Source: Promethearchaeota archaeon
GTDB taxonomy: Archaea; Asgardarchaeota; Lokiarchaeia; Sigyniarchaeales; SOKP01
Assembly (NCBI GenBank): GCA_048940925.1
Contig: JBHLOC010000039.1
Span: forward strand, 1-40,597
Length of the DNA: 40,597 nt
Direction: 5' to 3'
Part shown: positions 35,047-38,626 of the stretch, piece by piece
Numbering within the stretch: position 1 is the stretch's first letter
Layout: each line of letters starts with the position of its first letter
Made by a program: the position numbers and the translations under genes
Notes under the pieces: generated by a model
What the model was told of the DNA's origin: nothing
Database searches by the model: none
The model's input: only the letters and a program-made list of their open reading frames with translations

Positions 35047-36531
35047 ATGGGAGAATACGGAGAGGGTGAATTCAATGAGAAAATTAAGGAAATTGAAACT
35101 AAACTCAATCAAATATCTCGTAATGAAAATAGTGGACGAATAAACGATTTTGGACCACTTGAAGAAATAGAGGATTTACATGAAGAAGTTGAATCTGGGT
35201 TTGAACCAAGAGATGAATCAAAATCCATTGAGTTTGAAAATTATTATGAACCATTAAATGAATCTGAAAAAAAAAAACCTTCAAAAGAAGAATATCCTAC
35301 AATGGATTTCATTGAAGATATAAGGGATGAAATCTCAAAATTAGTTCCCTCTCATGAATTACATGGTGGAAGAATCTCATACGACAAGCTTTCTGAATAC
35401 TTAGATATGCATACTCGCTATATTAGAGACACACGTAATAGAATAGTAAATTCGAATAATAAAAAATATAATCCAGATTTTAAATTTTCAAATGAACAAT
35501 TAAATAATTTTATATCTTCTTTCTCTAAAAAATTTAGCAATGTAGATATTAGCAGTATTGAAAAGTTAGTAAACAAATATGTCAATAGTAATGATCTTAT
35601 TGAATATAGACAACAACAATGGCATCTTCACAATCCTGATCTAAAATATGATTATTTCAAATCTCTTGACTCAACAAGTAAGGGATATTATTTTGGATTA
35701 TTACTTGCTGAGGGAACTATTTCTTCTAAAGGAAATCTAGGAATATTTTTAGAAAAAGAAGATATTAATGTAATGAAAAGATATAGAAAAGAACTTAATA
35801 TTGTAAATAAACTTGAATATGTAACAGATAAAAGAAAGAAAAAGCAATCAGGAGAGTATCCAGAACGATATGGTGTAAGAGTAGGATGTAAACCTATGAT
35901 AAACGATTTAAAAAACTTAGGATTTTTAAATTTCAAAGAACGAAATGCCTTAAAAGAAGGATTTTTTACAAACATGAGGGAAGATGTTGCTTTATCTATT
36001 TTACTTGGTTTTTATGATGGAGATGGTGAAGAAAGTGCTCCTATTATTCATTCTACTAATAAAAAATTTCTCAAACAAATTAAGAGAGAATTCAATATTA
36101 AACATGAAATAAAACTAAAGCGTAAAGCTGAAAGAACTAAAGTCTGGACTAAAGAATGTGATATAAAAGATCAATGGTATTTAAGAATTGGTCCAGAATT
36201 ATTTAATCGAATGATGGAATCGTATGACTATAGTATGGAAAGAAAAAGAGCGTATTATCCAATGAAGGGAGGTAAATATGCATATGATGCTCTTTCTAAG
36301 AAAATAGGTAATAGGGAATGTCTAAATGAATTATCTCTTATTGGTCCTAGAACTAAATTAGCTGACGCTTTTGGTTGTAGTTTCGAACTTTTTAAACGAC
36401 TATGCGATGAATATAATATTAAGACTTTACCTCATTCCTACTGGAAGAGAGCTGATAAAAAAGACTGGAAACTAAACTTCGATAAAAAAATTGAAGATTT
36501 CAAAAATAAATATTTGGTAAATAATCCATAA
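35047..36531 (+). CDS. Free-standing double-motif LAGLIDADG homing endonuclease-like protein
   Basis: GYYFGLLLAEGTI and SILLGFYDGDGE motifs; AGGTGA SD; no intein termini seen; acidic N-terminus. Confidence 0.82.
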   Translation: MGEYGEGEFNEKIKEIETKLNQISRNENSGRINDFGPLEEIEDLHEEVESGFEPRDESKSIEFENYYEPLNESEKKKPSKEEYPTMDFIEDIRDEISKLVPSHELHGGRISYDKLSEYLDMHTRYIRDTRNRIVNSNNKKYNPDFKFSNEQLNNFISSFSKKFSNVDISSIEKLVNKYVNSNDLIEYRQQQWHLHNPDLKYDYFKSLDSTSKGYYFGLLLAEGTISSKGNLGIFLEKEDINVMKRYRKELNIVNKLEYVTDKRKKKQSGEYPERYGVRVGCKPMINDLKNLGFLNFKERNALKEGFFTNMREDVALSILLGFYDGDGEESAPIIHSTNKKFLKQIKREFNIKHEIKLKRKAERTKVWTKECDIKDQWYLRIGPELFNRMMESYDYSMERKRAYYPMKGGKYAYDALSKKIGNRECLNELSLIGPRTKLADAFGCSFELFKRLCDEYNIKTLPHSYWKRADKKDWKLNFDKKIEDFKNKYLVNNP

Positions 36532-36641
36532 ATAAATTAGAAAAATTTTTTTTATATTGTTAATTTATCAAATTAAAGTTGTGATTTTATTTTAAATGTT
36601 AATTAGAATTACCAAATTTGGAATTATAGAGGTGATTTACC

Positions 36642-36873
36642 ATCATTATCCCAATCCGCTGCTTTAGTTGCGGTAAGCTCATAGCACATGTATATGAACC
36701 ATATTTAGAGTATTTAGAAAAAGGAGAGAGCTCAGAAAAAGCGTTTAAGGAGCTTGGTATTGAACGCTTTTGTTGTAAACGCATGATCGTAAATTAGTAG
36801 GCATTTTCGCCTTATAAGTGTAAGTCATGTGGATCTGATAGATGAGCTCCTCAAATTTCCGAGATTACAATAG
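36642..36873 (+). CDS. rpoN: DNA-directed RNA polymerase subunit N (Rpo10); split gene join(36642..36792,36824..36873), ATC start, 66 aa
   Basis: (M)IIPIRCFSCGK...LGIERFCCKRMIV + SHVDLIDELLKFPRLQ*; GAGGTGA SD 6 nt upstream; missed by ORF track. Confidence 0.92.
36793..36823 (+). other. Candidate 31-nt bulge-helix-bulge intron in rpoN mRNA
   Basis: 7-bp exon helix, two 3-nt bulges, 4-position central helix (3 of 4 paired), intron hairpin; removal restores frame. Confidence 0.75.
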
Positions 36874-36934
36874 TCTAAATTAATTATATAGTAATCTAAG
36901 TGAAATACAAGAGTAAAATTATGTGGATTTTCTT

Positions 36935-36976
36935 GACCTGATCGATGAATTACTTAAATTTCCTCGATTACAATGA
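36935..36976 (+). repeat. Second, synonymously recoded copy of the rpoN 3' end (DLIDELLKFPRLQ*)
   Basis: Same 13 aa as 36832-36873, with 8 silent nucleotide changes and TGA instead of TAG. Confidence 0.9.
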
Positions 36977-37015: not shown

Positions 37016-37198
37016 TTATTCTTTCCCGTAATAAGCAGTCCATCTGGTTTTTCTTGCTTTTTTTTTATAAACCAGCATTGCTTTTCTACATTTGTTGGTA
37101 CAAAAATTATGTATTATACCGTTCTTTTGGATAAACATTATTCCTCTGCCTATAGGAATATCATACCCACAGAAAGAGCATTTCTTTACTTTGACCAT
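37016..37198 (-). CDS. rpl24e: 50S ribosomal protein L24e
   Basis: CSFCG..I..GRG.M...FCTNKC...RWT. Confidence 0.96.
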   Translation of the reverse strand: MVKVKKCSFCGYDIPIGRGIMFIQKNGIIHNFCTNKCRKAMLVYKKKARKTRWTAYYGKE

Positions 37199-37801: not shown

Positions 37802-38626
37802 ATGCAGATATTTGAAGTTGTTCCACTTACCAAATTCCCGTATATGGAAACAAGAGAAGTACTGCAAGGGAATACAGTGCGTGATATTTTGAATGAAACC
37901 AGTAAAGAAAAGGTATATTTGCTGGTAGATCATGATACAAAGAAAATTTGGACTTTTAATGGTTCTCATAGCTCTTTCAAAGTCCAAATATACGGTGGTA
38001 TTTTAGCTGGAATGCTTCGACAACAATTAAGATTATTTTATAGAGTTTACCCATTAAACATGTATTCTAGCGATAATCAAGAATTTCAAAATATTATGGA
38101 AAAACCACTTGGGGCTGGGCGAGCTAAACCTATCGAGAAAAATGATTTTGCTAAACCTACTGAAGATAAATATATAAAAGATGTCTCGATTGCCAGCCCT
38201 AAAGCAAATAAAGCAATTGAATATATTAATAGTTTTCCCAAGCCAGATGATTTGATAAGAAGATTTATTGTAATAGGGGGAACTATATATAATGAAGAGG
38301 AAATTATAGAAGCTTTTGTTAAAGAAGAAAAGAATGTAACAAATACTGTGAAATTAGGACGTTTAAACAATGGTTTTACCTTTTTCAAAGATCATAATTA
38401 CTCCACTCGATTAATTATTAAAGATCGAAAAATTCAAGGGATCGAATTATATATCCATAAAGATGATAAATCTCCTCCATTGGAATCACAAATCCCGGTT
38501 TTATACGAAGAAAAATATAGTAAACCGGGTTCTTTCAATGCTTTAATCAAGGCATTTAAAATTCCAGATAAATTACCTGAAGACACTGAAACAACCGCTC
38601 AAGATGATTCTACTAATCAATCCTAG
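37802..38626 (+). CDS. Hypothetical protein with divergent N-terminal gelsolin-like domain
   Basis: [23 protein letters not shown] resembles the gelsolin V.L.D....I..W.G..SS core. Confidence 0.55.

What the first reader, a model, noticed from the sequence alone, without database searches (positions are those of the whole stretch)
36780..36831. Candidate BHB (tRNA-endonuclease-type) intron splitting the RNA polymerase gene rpoN in an Asgard-like archaeon
Seen: rpoN reads ...CCKRMIV, then hits AAT TAG TAG; the conserved tail SHVDLIDELL resumes 31 nt later in another frame. Hand folding gives BHB geometry. Exon helix CGCAUGA(36780-86) pairs with UCAUGUG(36825-31), 7 pairs. Central helix UCGU(36787-90)/GUGU(36818-21) has C-G, G-U, U-G and one U-U mismatch. 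The 3-nt bulges are AAA(36791-93) and AAG(36822-24). The intron stem is UUA/UAA plus AGGC/GCCU, closing an AUUUUC loop. Cutting after the second base of each bulge removes 36793-36823 and gives GTA A|GT CAT = V-S-H, a full 66-aa Rpo10. Established: EndA cuts BHB motifs at these positions and RtcB ligates; archaeal mRNA introns are rare, the classic case being crenarchaeal cbf5. Inference: a core RNA polymerase subunit here depends on mRNA splicing, in the lineage closest to eukaryotes. Alternative: the insert is flanked by a GTAA direct repeat with matched GTA codons and a hairpin, which also fits ribosomal bypassing or a target-site duplication.
Basis: partly seen in the sequence, partly recalled or inferred. 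Interest (0 to 1): 0.93.

Follow-up and report, generated by a model that had tools for sequence, protein, structure and literature searches.

The report
Mobile tRNA-type intron splitting rpoN
The only gene for the small RNA polymerase subunit Rpo10 in this Asgard-type archaeon is broken by a 31-base tRNA-type intron that very probably has to be cut out of the mRNA, and the intron appears to have arrived with a replacement gene end next to a selfish DNA-cutting enzyme gene.

Summary
rpoN reads to ...CCKRMIVN-stop, and its conserved tail resumes 31 nt later in another frame. The insert has bulge-helix-bulge (BHB) geometry.

It is not an artefact. An independent mangrove metagenome contig carries it unchanged, and it is the only rpoN in a genome scored 100% complete.

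The same insert sits at the same site in 10 of 48 rpoN-bearing genomes of the genus and on 7 metagenome contigs. Across the 17 aligned sequences:
- Five base pairs show compensatory changes.
- Cutting at the canonical bulge positions restores KRMIV(S/G)HVDL in all 17.
- In 14 full-length alleles, exon 2 varies in 13 of 15 codons, always synonymously.

Ribosomal bypassing and frameshifting fail in several alleles. The genome encodes two EndA subunits and RtcB. No RNA data exist, so splicing itself is inferred.

New here:
- A decayed second copy of the gene's 3' end lies downstream (36917-36976).
- A LAGLIDADG endonuclease gene lies beside rpoN (35047-36531).
- Comparing filled and empty sites shows that exon 1, intron and tail were imported, with the break at the intron site.

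This matches the endonuclease "gene hybrids" of fungal mitochondria.

This scan had already reported the same rpoN intron in related genomes, and other mRNA introns in this genome. In print, only cbf5 is confirmed.

The parts
35047..36531 (+). Free-standing LAGLIDADG homing-endonuclease gene (494 aa, intact), co-directional with rpoN and 110 nt upstream of it
   Evidence: The ORF appears. Pfam LAGLIDADG_3 scores 23.6 bits against a cut-off of 22.5. Two LAGLIDADG-type motifs about 105 aa apart can be read directly in the translation. Homologues at 54-67% identity lie beside intron-bearing rpoN in 8 other loci.
36629..36636 (+). Shine-Dalgarno-like GAGGTGAT, 5 nt upstream of the ATC start codon
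   Evidence: Read directly. Many species of the genus have GGAGGAGAT followed by an ATH start at the same place.
36642..36792 (+). rpoN exon 1: codons 1-50 plus the first base of codon 51, with an ATC start
   Evidence: Pfam RNA_pol_N, E = 8e-23, model positions 1-49 of 58. Translation.
36780..36793 (+). 5' half of the BHB: exon helix strand (36780-86), central helix strand (36787-90) and bulge 1, AAA (36791-93). The predicted cut is after 36792.
36793..36823 (+). 31-nt BHB intron, carrying TAG TAG in the exon-1 frame
   Evidence: Absent from 38 intact rpoN genes of the genus and present at the same site in 17 sequences. A DNA contig from an independent study spans it with no differences.
36794..36817 (+). 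Intron hairpin (helix h'): 9-position stem 36794-36802 / 36809-36817, with loop AUUUUC
   Evidence: 4 of its 9 pairs show changes on both sides across the alignment, and 91% of cells are paired.
36818..36831 (+). 3' half of the BHB: central helix strand (36818-21), bulge 2, AAG (36822-24), and exon helix strand (36825-31). The predicted cut is after 36823.
   Evidence: The central-helix pair C-G changes to U-A in 3 sequences.
36824..36873 (+). rpoN exon 2, the imported replacement tail: (S)HVDLIDELLKFPRLQ plus the TAG stop
   Evidence: 13 of 15 codon columns vary among 14 alleles, all synonymously. It is only about 82-83% identical to the native tails of sister species whose flanks are 93-95% identical.
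36874..36916 (+). Spacer between the functional tail and the relic tail. In the related 'type A' loci the endonuclease gene sits here.
   Evidence: No endonuclease remnants were detectable in it.
36917..36976 (+). Relic of the native rpoN 3' end: NYVDFLDLIDELLKFPRLQ-stop, in a third frame, with the SHV part decayed and a 9-nt insertion
   Evidence: A second tail is present in 12 of 16 intron-bearing loci and in 0 of 25 intronless loci. In sister-species comparisons the relic is collinear with the native tail at 95-96% identity.
37016..37198 (-). Ribosomal protein L24e gene, convergent with rpoN: the conserved right-hand flank of the site
   Evidence: Pfam Ribosomal_L24e, E = 6e-17. It holds the same position in most loci of the genus.

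Best explanation
**RNA level.** The rpoN pre-mRNA folds into a bulge-helix-bulge motif. It has a 7-bp exon-exon helix and a 4-position central helix formed by the end of exon 1 and the 3' end of the intron. Two 3-nt bulges and a 9-position intron hairpin complete it. The heteromeric splicing endonuclease EndA would cut after the second base of each bulge, that is after 36792 and after 36823. RtcB would join the exons, giving ...ATG ATC GTA AGT CAT... and a complete 66-residue Rpo10. The 31-nt intron is released, probably as a circle. The sequence, structure and selection evidence is shown. The cutting and joining are inferred.

**DNA level.** The intron did not arise in place. It came as part of a mobile block made of rpoN exon 1, the intron and a replacement 3' exon, usually with a free-standing LAGLIDADG endonuclease gene. 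This block replaced the native gene up to the intron site and left the native 3' end behind as a decaying relic.

The most likely driver is homing. The endonuclease would cut intronless rpoN alleles at or near codons 50-53, and repair would copy the block from a donor. The relic tail and the L24e flank would serve as the right-hand homology. The intron would split the recognition sequence and so protect the carrier.

My odds: intron spliced from the mRNA, about 0.85. Block imported horizontally, about 0.75. Endonuclease is the driver, about 0.6.
For: **Real and sole copy.**
- An independent-study contig matches 36578-36966 with no differences.
- Each of the 10 intron-bearing genomes (88-100% complete) has one rpoN match.

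**Recurrence.**
- The insert is at the same site in 10 of 48 rpoN-bearing genomes of the genus and on 7 distinct metagenome contigs.
- It is 31 nt long in all but G030, where it is 30 nt.

**Structure.**
- 89% of cells are paired, against 31-49% when the partners are slid.
- 5 pairs carry changes on both sides, in 12 cells; 0 of 500 shuffles reach this.
- These include C-G to U-A in the central helix, where the exon-side change is a synonymous ATC to ATT.

**Synonymous sites fixed where the exons form the helices.**

| Codon | Intron-bearing | Intronless |
|---|---|---|
| Arg47 CGC | 14/14 | 0/25 |
| Val50 GTA | 14/14 | 3/25 |
| Codon 51 AGT or GGT | 14/14 | 2/25 |

**Product and selection.**
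- Canonical cuts give KRMIV(S/G)HVDL in 17 of 17. S and G are the two residues that predominate here in intronless relatives (20 of 25).
- Exon 2 varies in 13 of 15 codon columns, with no amino-acid change.

**Machinery.**
- The genome has two EndA-domain genes and one RtcB gene.
- Asgard EndA is the broad-specificity (alpha-beta)2 type (PMC5829648).
- In cbf5, cleavage lies between the 2nd and 3rd bulge nucleotides (PMC2738675).

**Mobility.**
- A relic tail is present in 12 of 16 intron-bearing loci and 0 of 25 intronless loci.
- The endonuclease gene lies beside 9 of 16 intron-bearing loci and 1 of 25 intronless loci.
- Empty against filled sites:
  - G026/G030: native tail and flank are 95.2% identical starting at rpoN nt 154, 3 nt from the intron site; exon 1 is 82.6% and the tail 81.6%.
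  - G019/mgL096: 96.3% against 82.7%.
  - G031/G001: 93.2% against 83.9%.
- Intron-bearing tips are scattered on a flank-gene tree, needing at least 11 changes for 13 tips.
- The endonuclease gene is frameshifted in G001 and G024, as expected in a homing cycle.
Against: - No RNA run holds the locus, so no spliced junction, circular intron or peptide has been seen.
- In this window the central helix is the weakest of the 17 sequences (U-U, C-G, G-U, U-G). The minimum-energy fold leaves it open as an internal loop.
- The U-U mismatch is present in 14 of 16 distinct sequences, so the motif is slightly relaxed rather than textbook.
- The endonuclease's cleavage site is untested.
- In this window the endonuclease gene lies upstream of rpoN, not between the two tails. 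Seven intron-bearing loci have no endonuclease gene nearby, and their spacers hold no detectable remnants of one.
- The trees rest on short or adjacent sequences, and related genomes are not independent samples.
- The genome bin has 8.4% estimated contamination.
Confidence: 0.8

Rival explanations
1. Translational recoding. The ribosome either hops from GUA (36789-91) to the GUA 31 nt downstream, as in phage T4 gene 60, or shifts +1 just before the UAG. The mRNA would not be spliced.
For: In this window a GTA codon, a stop and a hairpin follow one another, and a second GTA precedes AGT CAT. After a +1 shift at AAT, the tail frame is open through the insert in this window.
Against: - The landing GTA is absent in 6 of 17 alleles, where it reads ATA, AGA, GGA or GTT, while BHB pairing is kept by compensatory change.
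- In G024, landing on GTA would give Cys in place of the conserved Ser/Gly.
- mg_L060 has a stop inside the insert in the tail frame.
- The G030 insert is 30 nt and in frame, with two stops, so no frameshift can rescue it.
- A +1 shift would add about 10 residues inside a conserved helix.
Confidence: 0.04
2. The gene is broken or truncated. Either a 51-residue Rpo10 lacking the C-terminal helix is enough, or rpoN function is supplied from elsewhere. The downstream tail would then be an untranslated leftover.
For: Exon 1 alone carries all four zinc ligands (CFSCG...CC) and matches 49 of 58 Pfam positions. A truly untranslated tail copy, the relic, does exist in the same locus.
Against: - Exon 2 shows 13 variable codon columns with no amino-acid change across 14 alleles. 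The relic copies, by contrast, lose the SHV part, gain indels and acquire stops.
- There is no second rpoN in any of the 10 intron-bearing genomes.
- The helix-forming synonymous sites are fixed only in intron-bearing alleles.
Confidence: 0.05
3. The intron is spliced, but it is old and inherited vertically. On this view it was lost many times, the neighbouring endonuclease gene is an unrelated passenger, and the second tail comes from a single ancient tandem duplication.
For: - 7 of 16 intron-bearing loci have no endonuclease gene nearby.
- The spacers hold no endonuclease remnants.
- Intron-bearing alleles partly cluster on the rpoN exon tree, needing 7 changes against 11 on the flank tree. 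This also fits a single origin.
Against: - Sister genomes with 93-96% identical flanks have exon 1 only 82-84% identical, and the switch falls at the intron site.
- The empty sister's working tail is collinear with the filled sister's relic at 95-96%. Under repeated loss, this would require a decaying relic to be brought back into use.
- Endonuclease association is 9 of 16 against 1 of 25.
- All three distant paralogues of this endonuclease in the genome also sit beside genes broken by short hairpin inserts.
Confidence: 0.15
4. Assembly or binning artefact: the insert or the duplicated tail is a chimeric join.
For: The genome is a metagenome bin of 90 contigs with 8.4% estimated contamination.
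Against: A 389-nt contig from a different study (mangrove) matches 36578-36966 with no differences, and another contig bridges the insert. The same architecture recurs in 16 independently assembled loci.
Confidence: 0.01

Closest known systems
BHB intron in the cbf5 pre-mRNA of Crenarchaeota (Desulfurococcales, Sulfolobales; Watanabe 2002, Yoshinari 2006, Yokobori 2009 = PMC2738675)
   Same: Both are short (16-44 nt) introns inside a protein-coding sequence. Both are flanked by a BHB-type motif, cut between the 2nd and 3rd bulge nucleotides by a hetero-oligomeric EndA, and patchy among related species.
   Different: The gene (rpoN, not cbf5) and the lineage (an Asgard-type genus) differ. Splicing here is inferred, not shown by cDNA. 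The cbf5 paper notes that its intron is too short to encode a nuclease and names no mobility agent. Here the intron travels with a replacement exon and often with an endonuclease gene.
Mobile endonuclease ORFs (mORFs) that create 'gene hybrids' in fungal mitochondria: Allomyces macrogynus atp6; Glomus atp6, atp9, cox2 and nad3; Rhizopus atp9; Mortierella cox2 (PMC3630166)
   Same: The architecture is the same: gene core, inserted foreign C-terminal part, LAGLIDADG (or GIY-YIG) endonuclease ORF, then the displaced native C-terminal part. As there, the native relic is close to that of the sister species while the inserted copy is divergent. In Glomus cox2 an intron (group I) even precedes the inserted C-terminal part.
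   Different: This is an archaeal chromosome, not mitochondrial DNA. The intron is a 31-nt protein-dependent BHB intron, not a ribozyme. The endonuclease ORF is separate and convergent or upstream, not fused in frame. Exon 1 also looks imported.
Collaborative or trans homing in phages: a free-standing endonuclease gene beside an intron that has no endonuclease gene of its own (T4 mobE/I-TevIII, PMC2790892; cyanophage F-CphI at the psbA intron site, PMC6083498)
   Same: A free-standing endonuclease gene lies next to a gene whose short intron has no ORF of its own. The proposed logic is the same: the enzyme cuts the intronless allele at the intron insertion site, and the intron disrupts the site.
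   Different: Those introns are self-splicing group I introns in phage genomes. The cleavage specificity has been shown there but not here.
Archaeal tRNA and rRNA BHB introns, some rRNA ones carrying LAGLIDADG homing-endonuclease ORFs
   Same: The RNA motif and enzymes are the same. The insertion point is also tRNA-like: the intron follows the 6th base of a 7-nt loop closed by the exon helix, like position 37/38 of a tRNA (my reading). PMC2738675 states that archaeal rRNA introns carry homing-endonuclease ORFs.
   Different: The host is an mRNA coding sequence, and the endonuclease gene is outside the intron. The covariance model of this intron finds no other copy in the genome, so it is not a dispersed tRNA-intron family.
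Programmed ribosomal bypassing (phage T4 gene 60)
   Same: In this window there is a take-off codon followed by a stop, a hairpin and a matching landing codon.
   Different: The matched codon is lost in 6 of 17 alleles. I do not file this feature under bypassing.

Membership tests
Archaeal BHB (EndA/RtcB-spliced) intron | Two 3-nt bulges on opposite strands, separated by a 4-bp helix and flanked by helices (hBHBh') | tested here: met
   The geometry is present at 36780-36831. Across 16 distinct sequences the exon helix is 93% paired, the central helix 78% (one U-U position in 14 of 16) and the intron helix 91%. The motif is slightly relaxed.
Archaeal BHB (EndA/RtcB-spliced) intron | The structure is maintained by compensatory substitutions | tested here: met
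   5 pairs and 12 cells carry changes on both sides; 0 of 500 shuffles reach this. Slid controls give 0-1 such pairs.
Archaeal BHB (EndA/RtcB-spliced) intron | Cutting after the 2nd nucleotide of each bulge yields the functional product | tested here: met
   The product is KRMIV(S/G)HVDL in 17 of 17, matching intronless homologues. The cleavage rule is taken from PMC2738675.
Archaeal BHB (EndA/RtcB-spliced) intron | The host encodes the splicing endonuclease and the RtcB ligase | tested here: met
   Two PF01974 matches (102 and 70 bits) and one PF01139 match (556 bits) in the genome.
Archaeal BHB (EndA/RtcB-spliced) intron | Spliced RNA and the excised (circular) intron are observed | not testable with these tools
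   No RNA run is listed for the locus.
LAGLIDADG homing endonuclease acting on the intronless allele (homing cassette / mORF gene hybrid) | The protein carries LAGLIDADG catalytic motifs | tested here: met
   Pfam LAGLIDADG_3 scores 23.6 bits against a cut-off of 22.5. Two motifs about 105 aa apart can be read in the translation. There is no sequence match in the PDB, so the assignment is weak but consistent. Paralogues match LAGLIDADG_3 or LAGLIDADG_1 more strongly.
LAGLIDADG homing endonuclease acting on the intronless allele (homing cassette / mORF gene hybrid) | The enzyme cleaves the empty (intronless) site but not the occupied one | not testable with these tools
   This needs an enzyme assay. 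The only indirect support is that native homology resumes within 3-10 nt of the intron site in filled loci.
LAGLIDADG homing endonuclease acting on the intronless allele (homing cassette / mORF gene hybrid) | An inserted, divergent gene end plus a displaced native gene end that matches the sister species | tested here: met
   The relic is 95-96% identical to the sister's native tail and flank, while the functional tail and exon 1 are 82-84% identical. The relic is found only in intron-bearing loci: 12 of 16 against 0 of 25.
LAGLIDADG homing endonuclease acting on the intronless allele (homing cassette / mORF gene hybrid) | Patchy distribution among close relatives, and association of the endonuclease gene with the occupied site | tested here: met
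   At least 11 state changes for 13 intron-bearing tips on the flank-gene tree. The endonuclease gene lies beside 9 of 16 occupied and 1 of 25 empty loci. Caveat: related genomes are not independent, and the tree is built from adjacent genes.
Programmed ribosomal bypassing (T4 gene 60 type) | Matched take-off and landing codons are conserved | tested here: not met
   The landing GTA is absent in 6 of 17 alleles.
Programmed +1 frameshift | The tail frame is open across the insert in all alleles, and the insert length is not a multiple of 3 | tested here: not met
   mg_L060 has a TAG in the tail frame inside the insert. The G030 insert is 30 nt with two in-frame stops.

The most novel reading that the evidence does not exclude
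In this Asgard genus a composite selfish element spreads between species by cutting intronless rpoN and being copied into the break. The element comprises a free-standing LAGLIDADG endonuclease gene, a 31-nt tRNA-type mini-intron and a recoded replacement exon. The mini-intron's job would be to split the endonuclease's own target.

All four members of this endonuclease family in the genome sit beside genes broken by short hairpin inserts. Endonuclease-driven homing would therefore be a general engine that seeds protein-coding genes of Asgard archaea with introns removed by host proteins, not by ribozymes.
Probability: 0.5. Interest if true: 0.88.

Novelty: new variant of a known kind. Interest (0 to 1): 0.78.

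Why it matters
In the papers I could search, protein-dependent (EndA/RtcB) splicing of an archaeal coding sequence is confirmed for one gene only, cbf5, and no mobility agent is known for it.

Here a core RNA polymerase subunit would depend on that pathway, in the archaeal group closest to eukaryotes. The locus also preserves the scars of how the intron got in: an imported exon-intron-exon block, a displaced native gene end and a neighbouring homing endonuclease gene.

That makes intron gain in coding genes directly testable in Asgard archaea. It can be tested with one RT-PCR, one EndA cleavage assay and one endonuclease assay.

It also links archaeal mRNA introns to a mechanism so far described in fungal mitochondria and phages. 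On the practical side, gene callers miss this rpoN and similar split genes.

Tried and rejected
- **RNA evidence.** No RNA holder is listed for the locus. Only DNA contigs could be laid. Two of the four runs laid no contigs, which means nothing.
- **Generic BHB-plus-ORF scan of the whole genome**. It was too noisy in this AT-rich genome. A decoy pairing rule gave more hits than real pairing, and most long-exon hits were adjacent genes. I draw no genome-wide count from it. It gave one convincing-looking 30-nt case, in an AIR-synthase-like gene at C30:66092. Pfam supports exon 2 only (AIRS positions 43-97).
- **Covariance model of the rpoN BHB against the genome.** It finds only itself, so this is not a dispersed repeat.
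- **Spot checks of earlier scan claims.** PF00204 (gyrB) and PF03764 (EF-2) showed intact domains. Any introns there must lie outside those domains, so those claims are not verified.
- **PDB sequence search with the endonuclease.** No match.
- **Endonuclease remnants in the spacers of loci that lack the endonuclease gene.** None found. I cannot say whether those forms are ancestral or deletion derivatives.
- **The 485-aa and 163-aa ORFs between rpoN and L24e in G025.** No Pfam family.
- **Relic tail as an alternative 3' exon.** Rejected for this window: its central-helix strand does not pair and its SHV codons are decayed. Only the G030 relic keeps an intact 3' BHB half.
- **rpoN exon tree**. 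One intron-bearing genome (G018) was mis-extracted and left unlabelled, and the alignment is only 174 nt. I use it as a weak hint only.
Full report
**1. The observation**

The sequence is exactly as described.
- rpoN starts at 36642 and reads ...CCKRMIV, then AAT TAG TAG.
- The conserved tail SHVDLIDELLKFPRLQ-stop lies at 36824-36873 in the +1 frame.
- The hand-drawn BHB is all present: 7-bp exon helix 36780-86/36825-31, central helix 36787-90/36818-21 with one U-U, bulges AAA and AAG, and the intron hairpin.
- Pfam RNA_pol_N matches exon 1 over model positions 1-49 of 58 and stops at the break.
- The 61-nt region folds far better than shuffles (z = -4.2). However, the minimum-energy fold of this particular allele leaves the weak central helix open.

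**2. Real DNA, and the only copy**

- A 389-nt contig from an unrelated mangrove study matches 36578-36966 with no differences. It spans exon 1, the insert, the tail, the spacer and part of a second tail. Another contig bridges the insert.
- The genome (100% complete, 8.4% contamination) has one rpoN match.
- It carries five strong eukaryote-type actin-family genes, which fits the 'Asgard-like' label.

**3. Recurrence**

- In the genus (54 genomes, 48 with rpoN), 10 genomes have rpoN truncated at the same model position. Each of them has a single rpoN match. The other 38 have an intact gene.
- A pattern scan of metagenome contigs added 7 distinct intron-bearing alleles.
- All inserts sit at the same nucleotide and are 31 nt long. 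The exception is G030, where the insert is 30 nt and in frame but carries TAG TAA.

**4. Structure and selection**

On the 17-sequence alignment A1, the BHB I specified has these properties:
- 89% of cells are paired, against 31-49% for slid partners.
- Five pairs and twelve cells change on both sides; 0 of 500 shuffles reach this.
- In the intron stem, G-C changes to A-U and C-G to U-A.
- In the central helix, C-G changes to U-A. There the exon-side change is a synonymous ATC to ATT.

The exon bases that form the helices are frozen only in intron-bearing alleles:

| Codon | Intron-bearing | Intronless |
|---|---|---|
| Arg47 CGC | 14/14 | 0/25 |
| Val50 GTA | 14/14 | 3/25 |
| Codon 51 AGT or GGT | 14/14 | 2/25 (AGT) |

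Neighbouring synonymous sites vary freely in the same alleles.

Cutting after the second base of each bulge is the rule documented for cbf5 (PMC2738675). It gives KRMIV(S/G)HVDL in all 17 sequences. S and G are the residues that predominate at that position in intronless relatives (20 of 25).

In 14 full-length alleles, 13 of 15 exon-2 codon columns vary and none changes the amino acid. Exon 2 is therefore translated in the frame that only removal of the insert provides.

**5. Rivals at the expression level**

- Bypassing needs matched GUA codons. The landing GTA is missing in 6 of 17 alleles, while pairing is retained.
- A +1 shift is blocked by a tail-frame stop in mg_L060 and is meaningless for the in-frame G030 insert.
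- A truncated or dead gene is contradicted by the selection on exon 2 and by the lack of any second copy.

**6. Machinery**

- The genome encodes two EndA catalytic-domain proteins and one RtcB.
- Published work assigns Asgard archaea the broad-specificity (alpha-beta)2 EndA with the L1 loop (PMC5829648). That enzyme type tolerates relaxed motifs such as this one.
- ARAGORN calls introns in 22 of 34 predicted tRNAs (rough).
- No RNA run holds the locus, so splicing itself remains inferred.

**7.

- A second tail lies 43 nt after the rpoN stop (36917-36976), in a third frame: NYVDFLDLIDELLKFPRLQ-stop. Its SHV codons have decayed.
- Such a relic is present in 12 of 16 intron-bearing loci and in none of 25 intronless loci.
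- ORF 35047-36531, just upstream of rpoN, is a double-motif LAGLIDADG endonuclease.
- In six loci, homologues at 58-67% identity lie between the functional tail and where the relic sits, convergent with rpoN: G001, G008, G024, G069, mgL081 and mgL092.
- In two other loci (mgL095, mgL096) the gene lies upstream and co-directional, as it does here.
- Overall the endonuclease gene is beside 9 of 16 occupied sites and 1 of 25 empty sites (Fisher p = 2.6e-4, with the caveat that relatives are not independent).
- It is frameshifted in G001 and G024.

**8. Filled against empty sites**

| Pair (empty / filled) | Native tail or relic + flank | Exon 1 | Functional tail |
|---|---|---|---|
| G026 / G030 | 95.2%, from rpoN nt 154 | 82.6% | 81.6% |
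| G019 / mgL096 | 96.3% | 82.7% | not aligned |
| G031 / G001 | 93.2% | 83.9% | 83.3% |

In the first pair, the native tail and downstream flank of G026 align with the relic and flank of G030. The alignment starts 3 nt from the intron site, which lies between nt 151 and 152.

So the relic is the recipient's own old gene end. Exon 1, the intron and the working tail are imported from a more distant allele, and the break point is the intron site.

On a tree of the flanking genes, intron-bearing tips are scattered, with at least 11 changes for 13 tips among 37. On the short rpoN exon tree they cluster more, with 7 changes (weak).

Repeated gain explains this better than repeated loss. Loss would require decaying relics to be brought back into use.

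**9. Mechanism and precedents**

- The architecture is gene core, inserted foreign C-terminal part, LAGLIDADG ORF, then displaced native C-terminal part close to the sister species. This is the 'mORF gene hybrid' of fungal mitochondria (Allomyces atp6; Glomus atp6, atp9, cox2, nad3). In Glomus cox2 it even includes an intron (PMC3630166).
- A free-standing endonuclease beside an ORF-less intron parallels collaborative homing in phages (PMC2790892 and PMC6083498).
- I therefore propose that the endonuclease cuts intronless rpoN near codons 50-53 and that repair copies the block. The relic and the L24e flank would provide right-hand homology, and the mini-intron would split the target and confer immunity.
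- The cleavage step is inferred. Which came first, the form with or without the endonuclease gene, is unresolved.

**10. Generality in this genome**

Three distant paralogues of the endonuclease (25-27% identity) each sit beside a gene broken by a short hairpin insert.
- Two acetyl-CoA-synthetase-like genes on C17 and C57 have the same in-frame, TAA-containing insert between AMP-binding model positions about 208 and 222.
- A DUF6125 gene on C70 starts at the endonuclease gene's stop codon and is frame-shifted after about 23 codons.

I did not define those introns precisely.

**11. Literature and earlier scan notes**

- The searchable literature confirms mRNA BHB splicing only for cbf5 (PMC2738675).
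- A 2026 preprint on Asgard tRNA introns does not mention mRNAs.
- No paper links Rpo10 with an intron.
- This scan had already reported the same rpoN intron in related genomes, including a note that it is mobile and often beside a homing endonuclease gene. It had also reported other mRNA introns in this genome.
- I re-derived the rpoN claims independently. My own genome-wide scan could not confirm the 'dozen more' claim.

**12. Verdict**

- The BHB-intron interpretation is supported at about 0.85 without RNA proof.
- The feature is a new variant of known kinds: a cbf5-type mRNA intron, and a mitochondrial-type endonuclease gene hybrid.
- It is of high interest because it makes both mRNA splicing and intron gain testable in Asgard archaea.

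Noticed in passing
window 36629-36644, and L007, L008, L011, L014, L021, L025, L026, L032, L033, L035, L036, L040: In this window and many species of the genus, rpoN has no ATG, GTG or TTG start. A strong GGAGG-type Shine-Dalgarno is followed 5-7 nt later by ATT, ATC or ATA at the position of the conserved Met, and here a TGA lies three codons upstream. Other species have ATG behind a TTTAAAAT box and no Shine-Dalgarno (leaderless type). The two 5' types are scattered on the flank tree, independently of the intron.
   Followed up: partly
G000 C17:3200-10200 (L126: 863-1915, 1937-2962, 2971-4080) and C57:72600-79600 (L124: 2849-3955, 3982-5004, 5026-5997): Two acetyl-CoA-synthetase-like genes are each split, between AMP-binding model positions about 208 and 222, by the same short in-frame hairpin insert containing TAA (...SWMMV-stop-VFLIPAKMW...). 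Each has a convergent LAGLIDADG endonuclease gene immediately downstream. The junction regions of the two copies are nearly identical.
   Followed up: partly
G000 C70:57200-64200 (L125: 2404-2954 and 2958-3845, minus strand): A DUF6125 gene starts directly after the stop codon of a LAGLIDADG endonuclease gene. It changes frame after ...WLAIDGKF-stop, across a hairpin insert of about 30 nt. The downstream ORF matches the Pfam model only from position 61 of 164.
   Followed up: partly
G000 C30:65704-66516 (L123): A 30-nt insert with a good BHB (central helix ACGU/GCGU, bulges AAA and AUC) lies in an AIR-synthase-related gene. Exon 2 begins at AIRS model position 43. Exon 1 gave no significant Pfam hit.
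   Followed up: partly
L035 (G030), about 150 nt after the rpoN stop: The relic tail of G030 is almost intact (SHVNLIDELLKFPRLQ). It is preceded by GCGTAAG, a complete 3' half of the BHB, so a long alternative intron from exon 1 to the relic is structurally possible in that species.
   Followed up: no
L040/L045 (G012): This is the only intronless rpoN with the endonuclease gene beside it. Its site is recoded (ATT ACG TCT CAC GTC GAC, giving ITSHVD). The rpoN-endonuclease block is inverted relative to L24e and S6e. It may be a resistant allele.
   Followed up: no
L046 (G025) 941-2924: Between the intron-bearing rpoN and L24e of G025 lie a 485-aa ORF, co-directional with rpoN, and a 163-aa ORF. 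Neither has a Pfam family or similarity to the LAGLIDADG gene.
   Followed up: partly
whole genome G000: ARAGORN finds only 34 tRNAs in a genome scored 100% complete, and 22 of them have predicted introns. Many tRNA genes are probably too interrupted to be detected.
   Followed up: no
window 37802-38626: A conserved 274-aa ORF with no Pfam family lies next to S6e. It is present at this position in most genomes of the genus at 59-84% identity.
   Followed up: no
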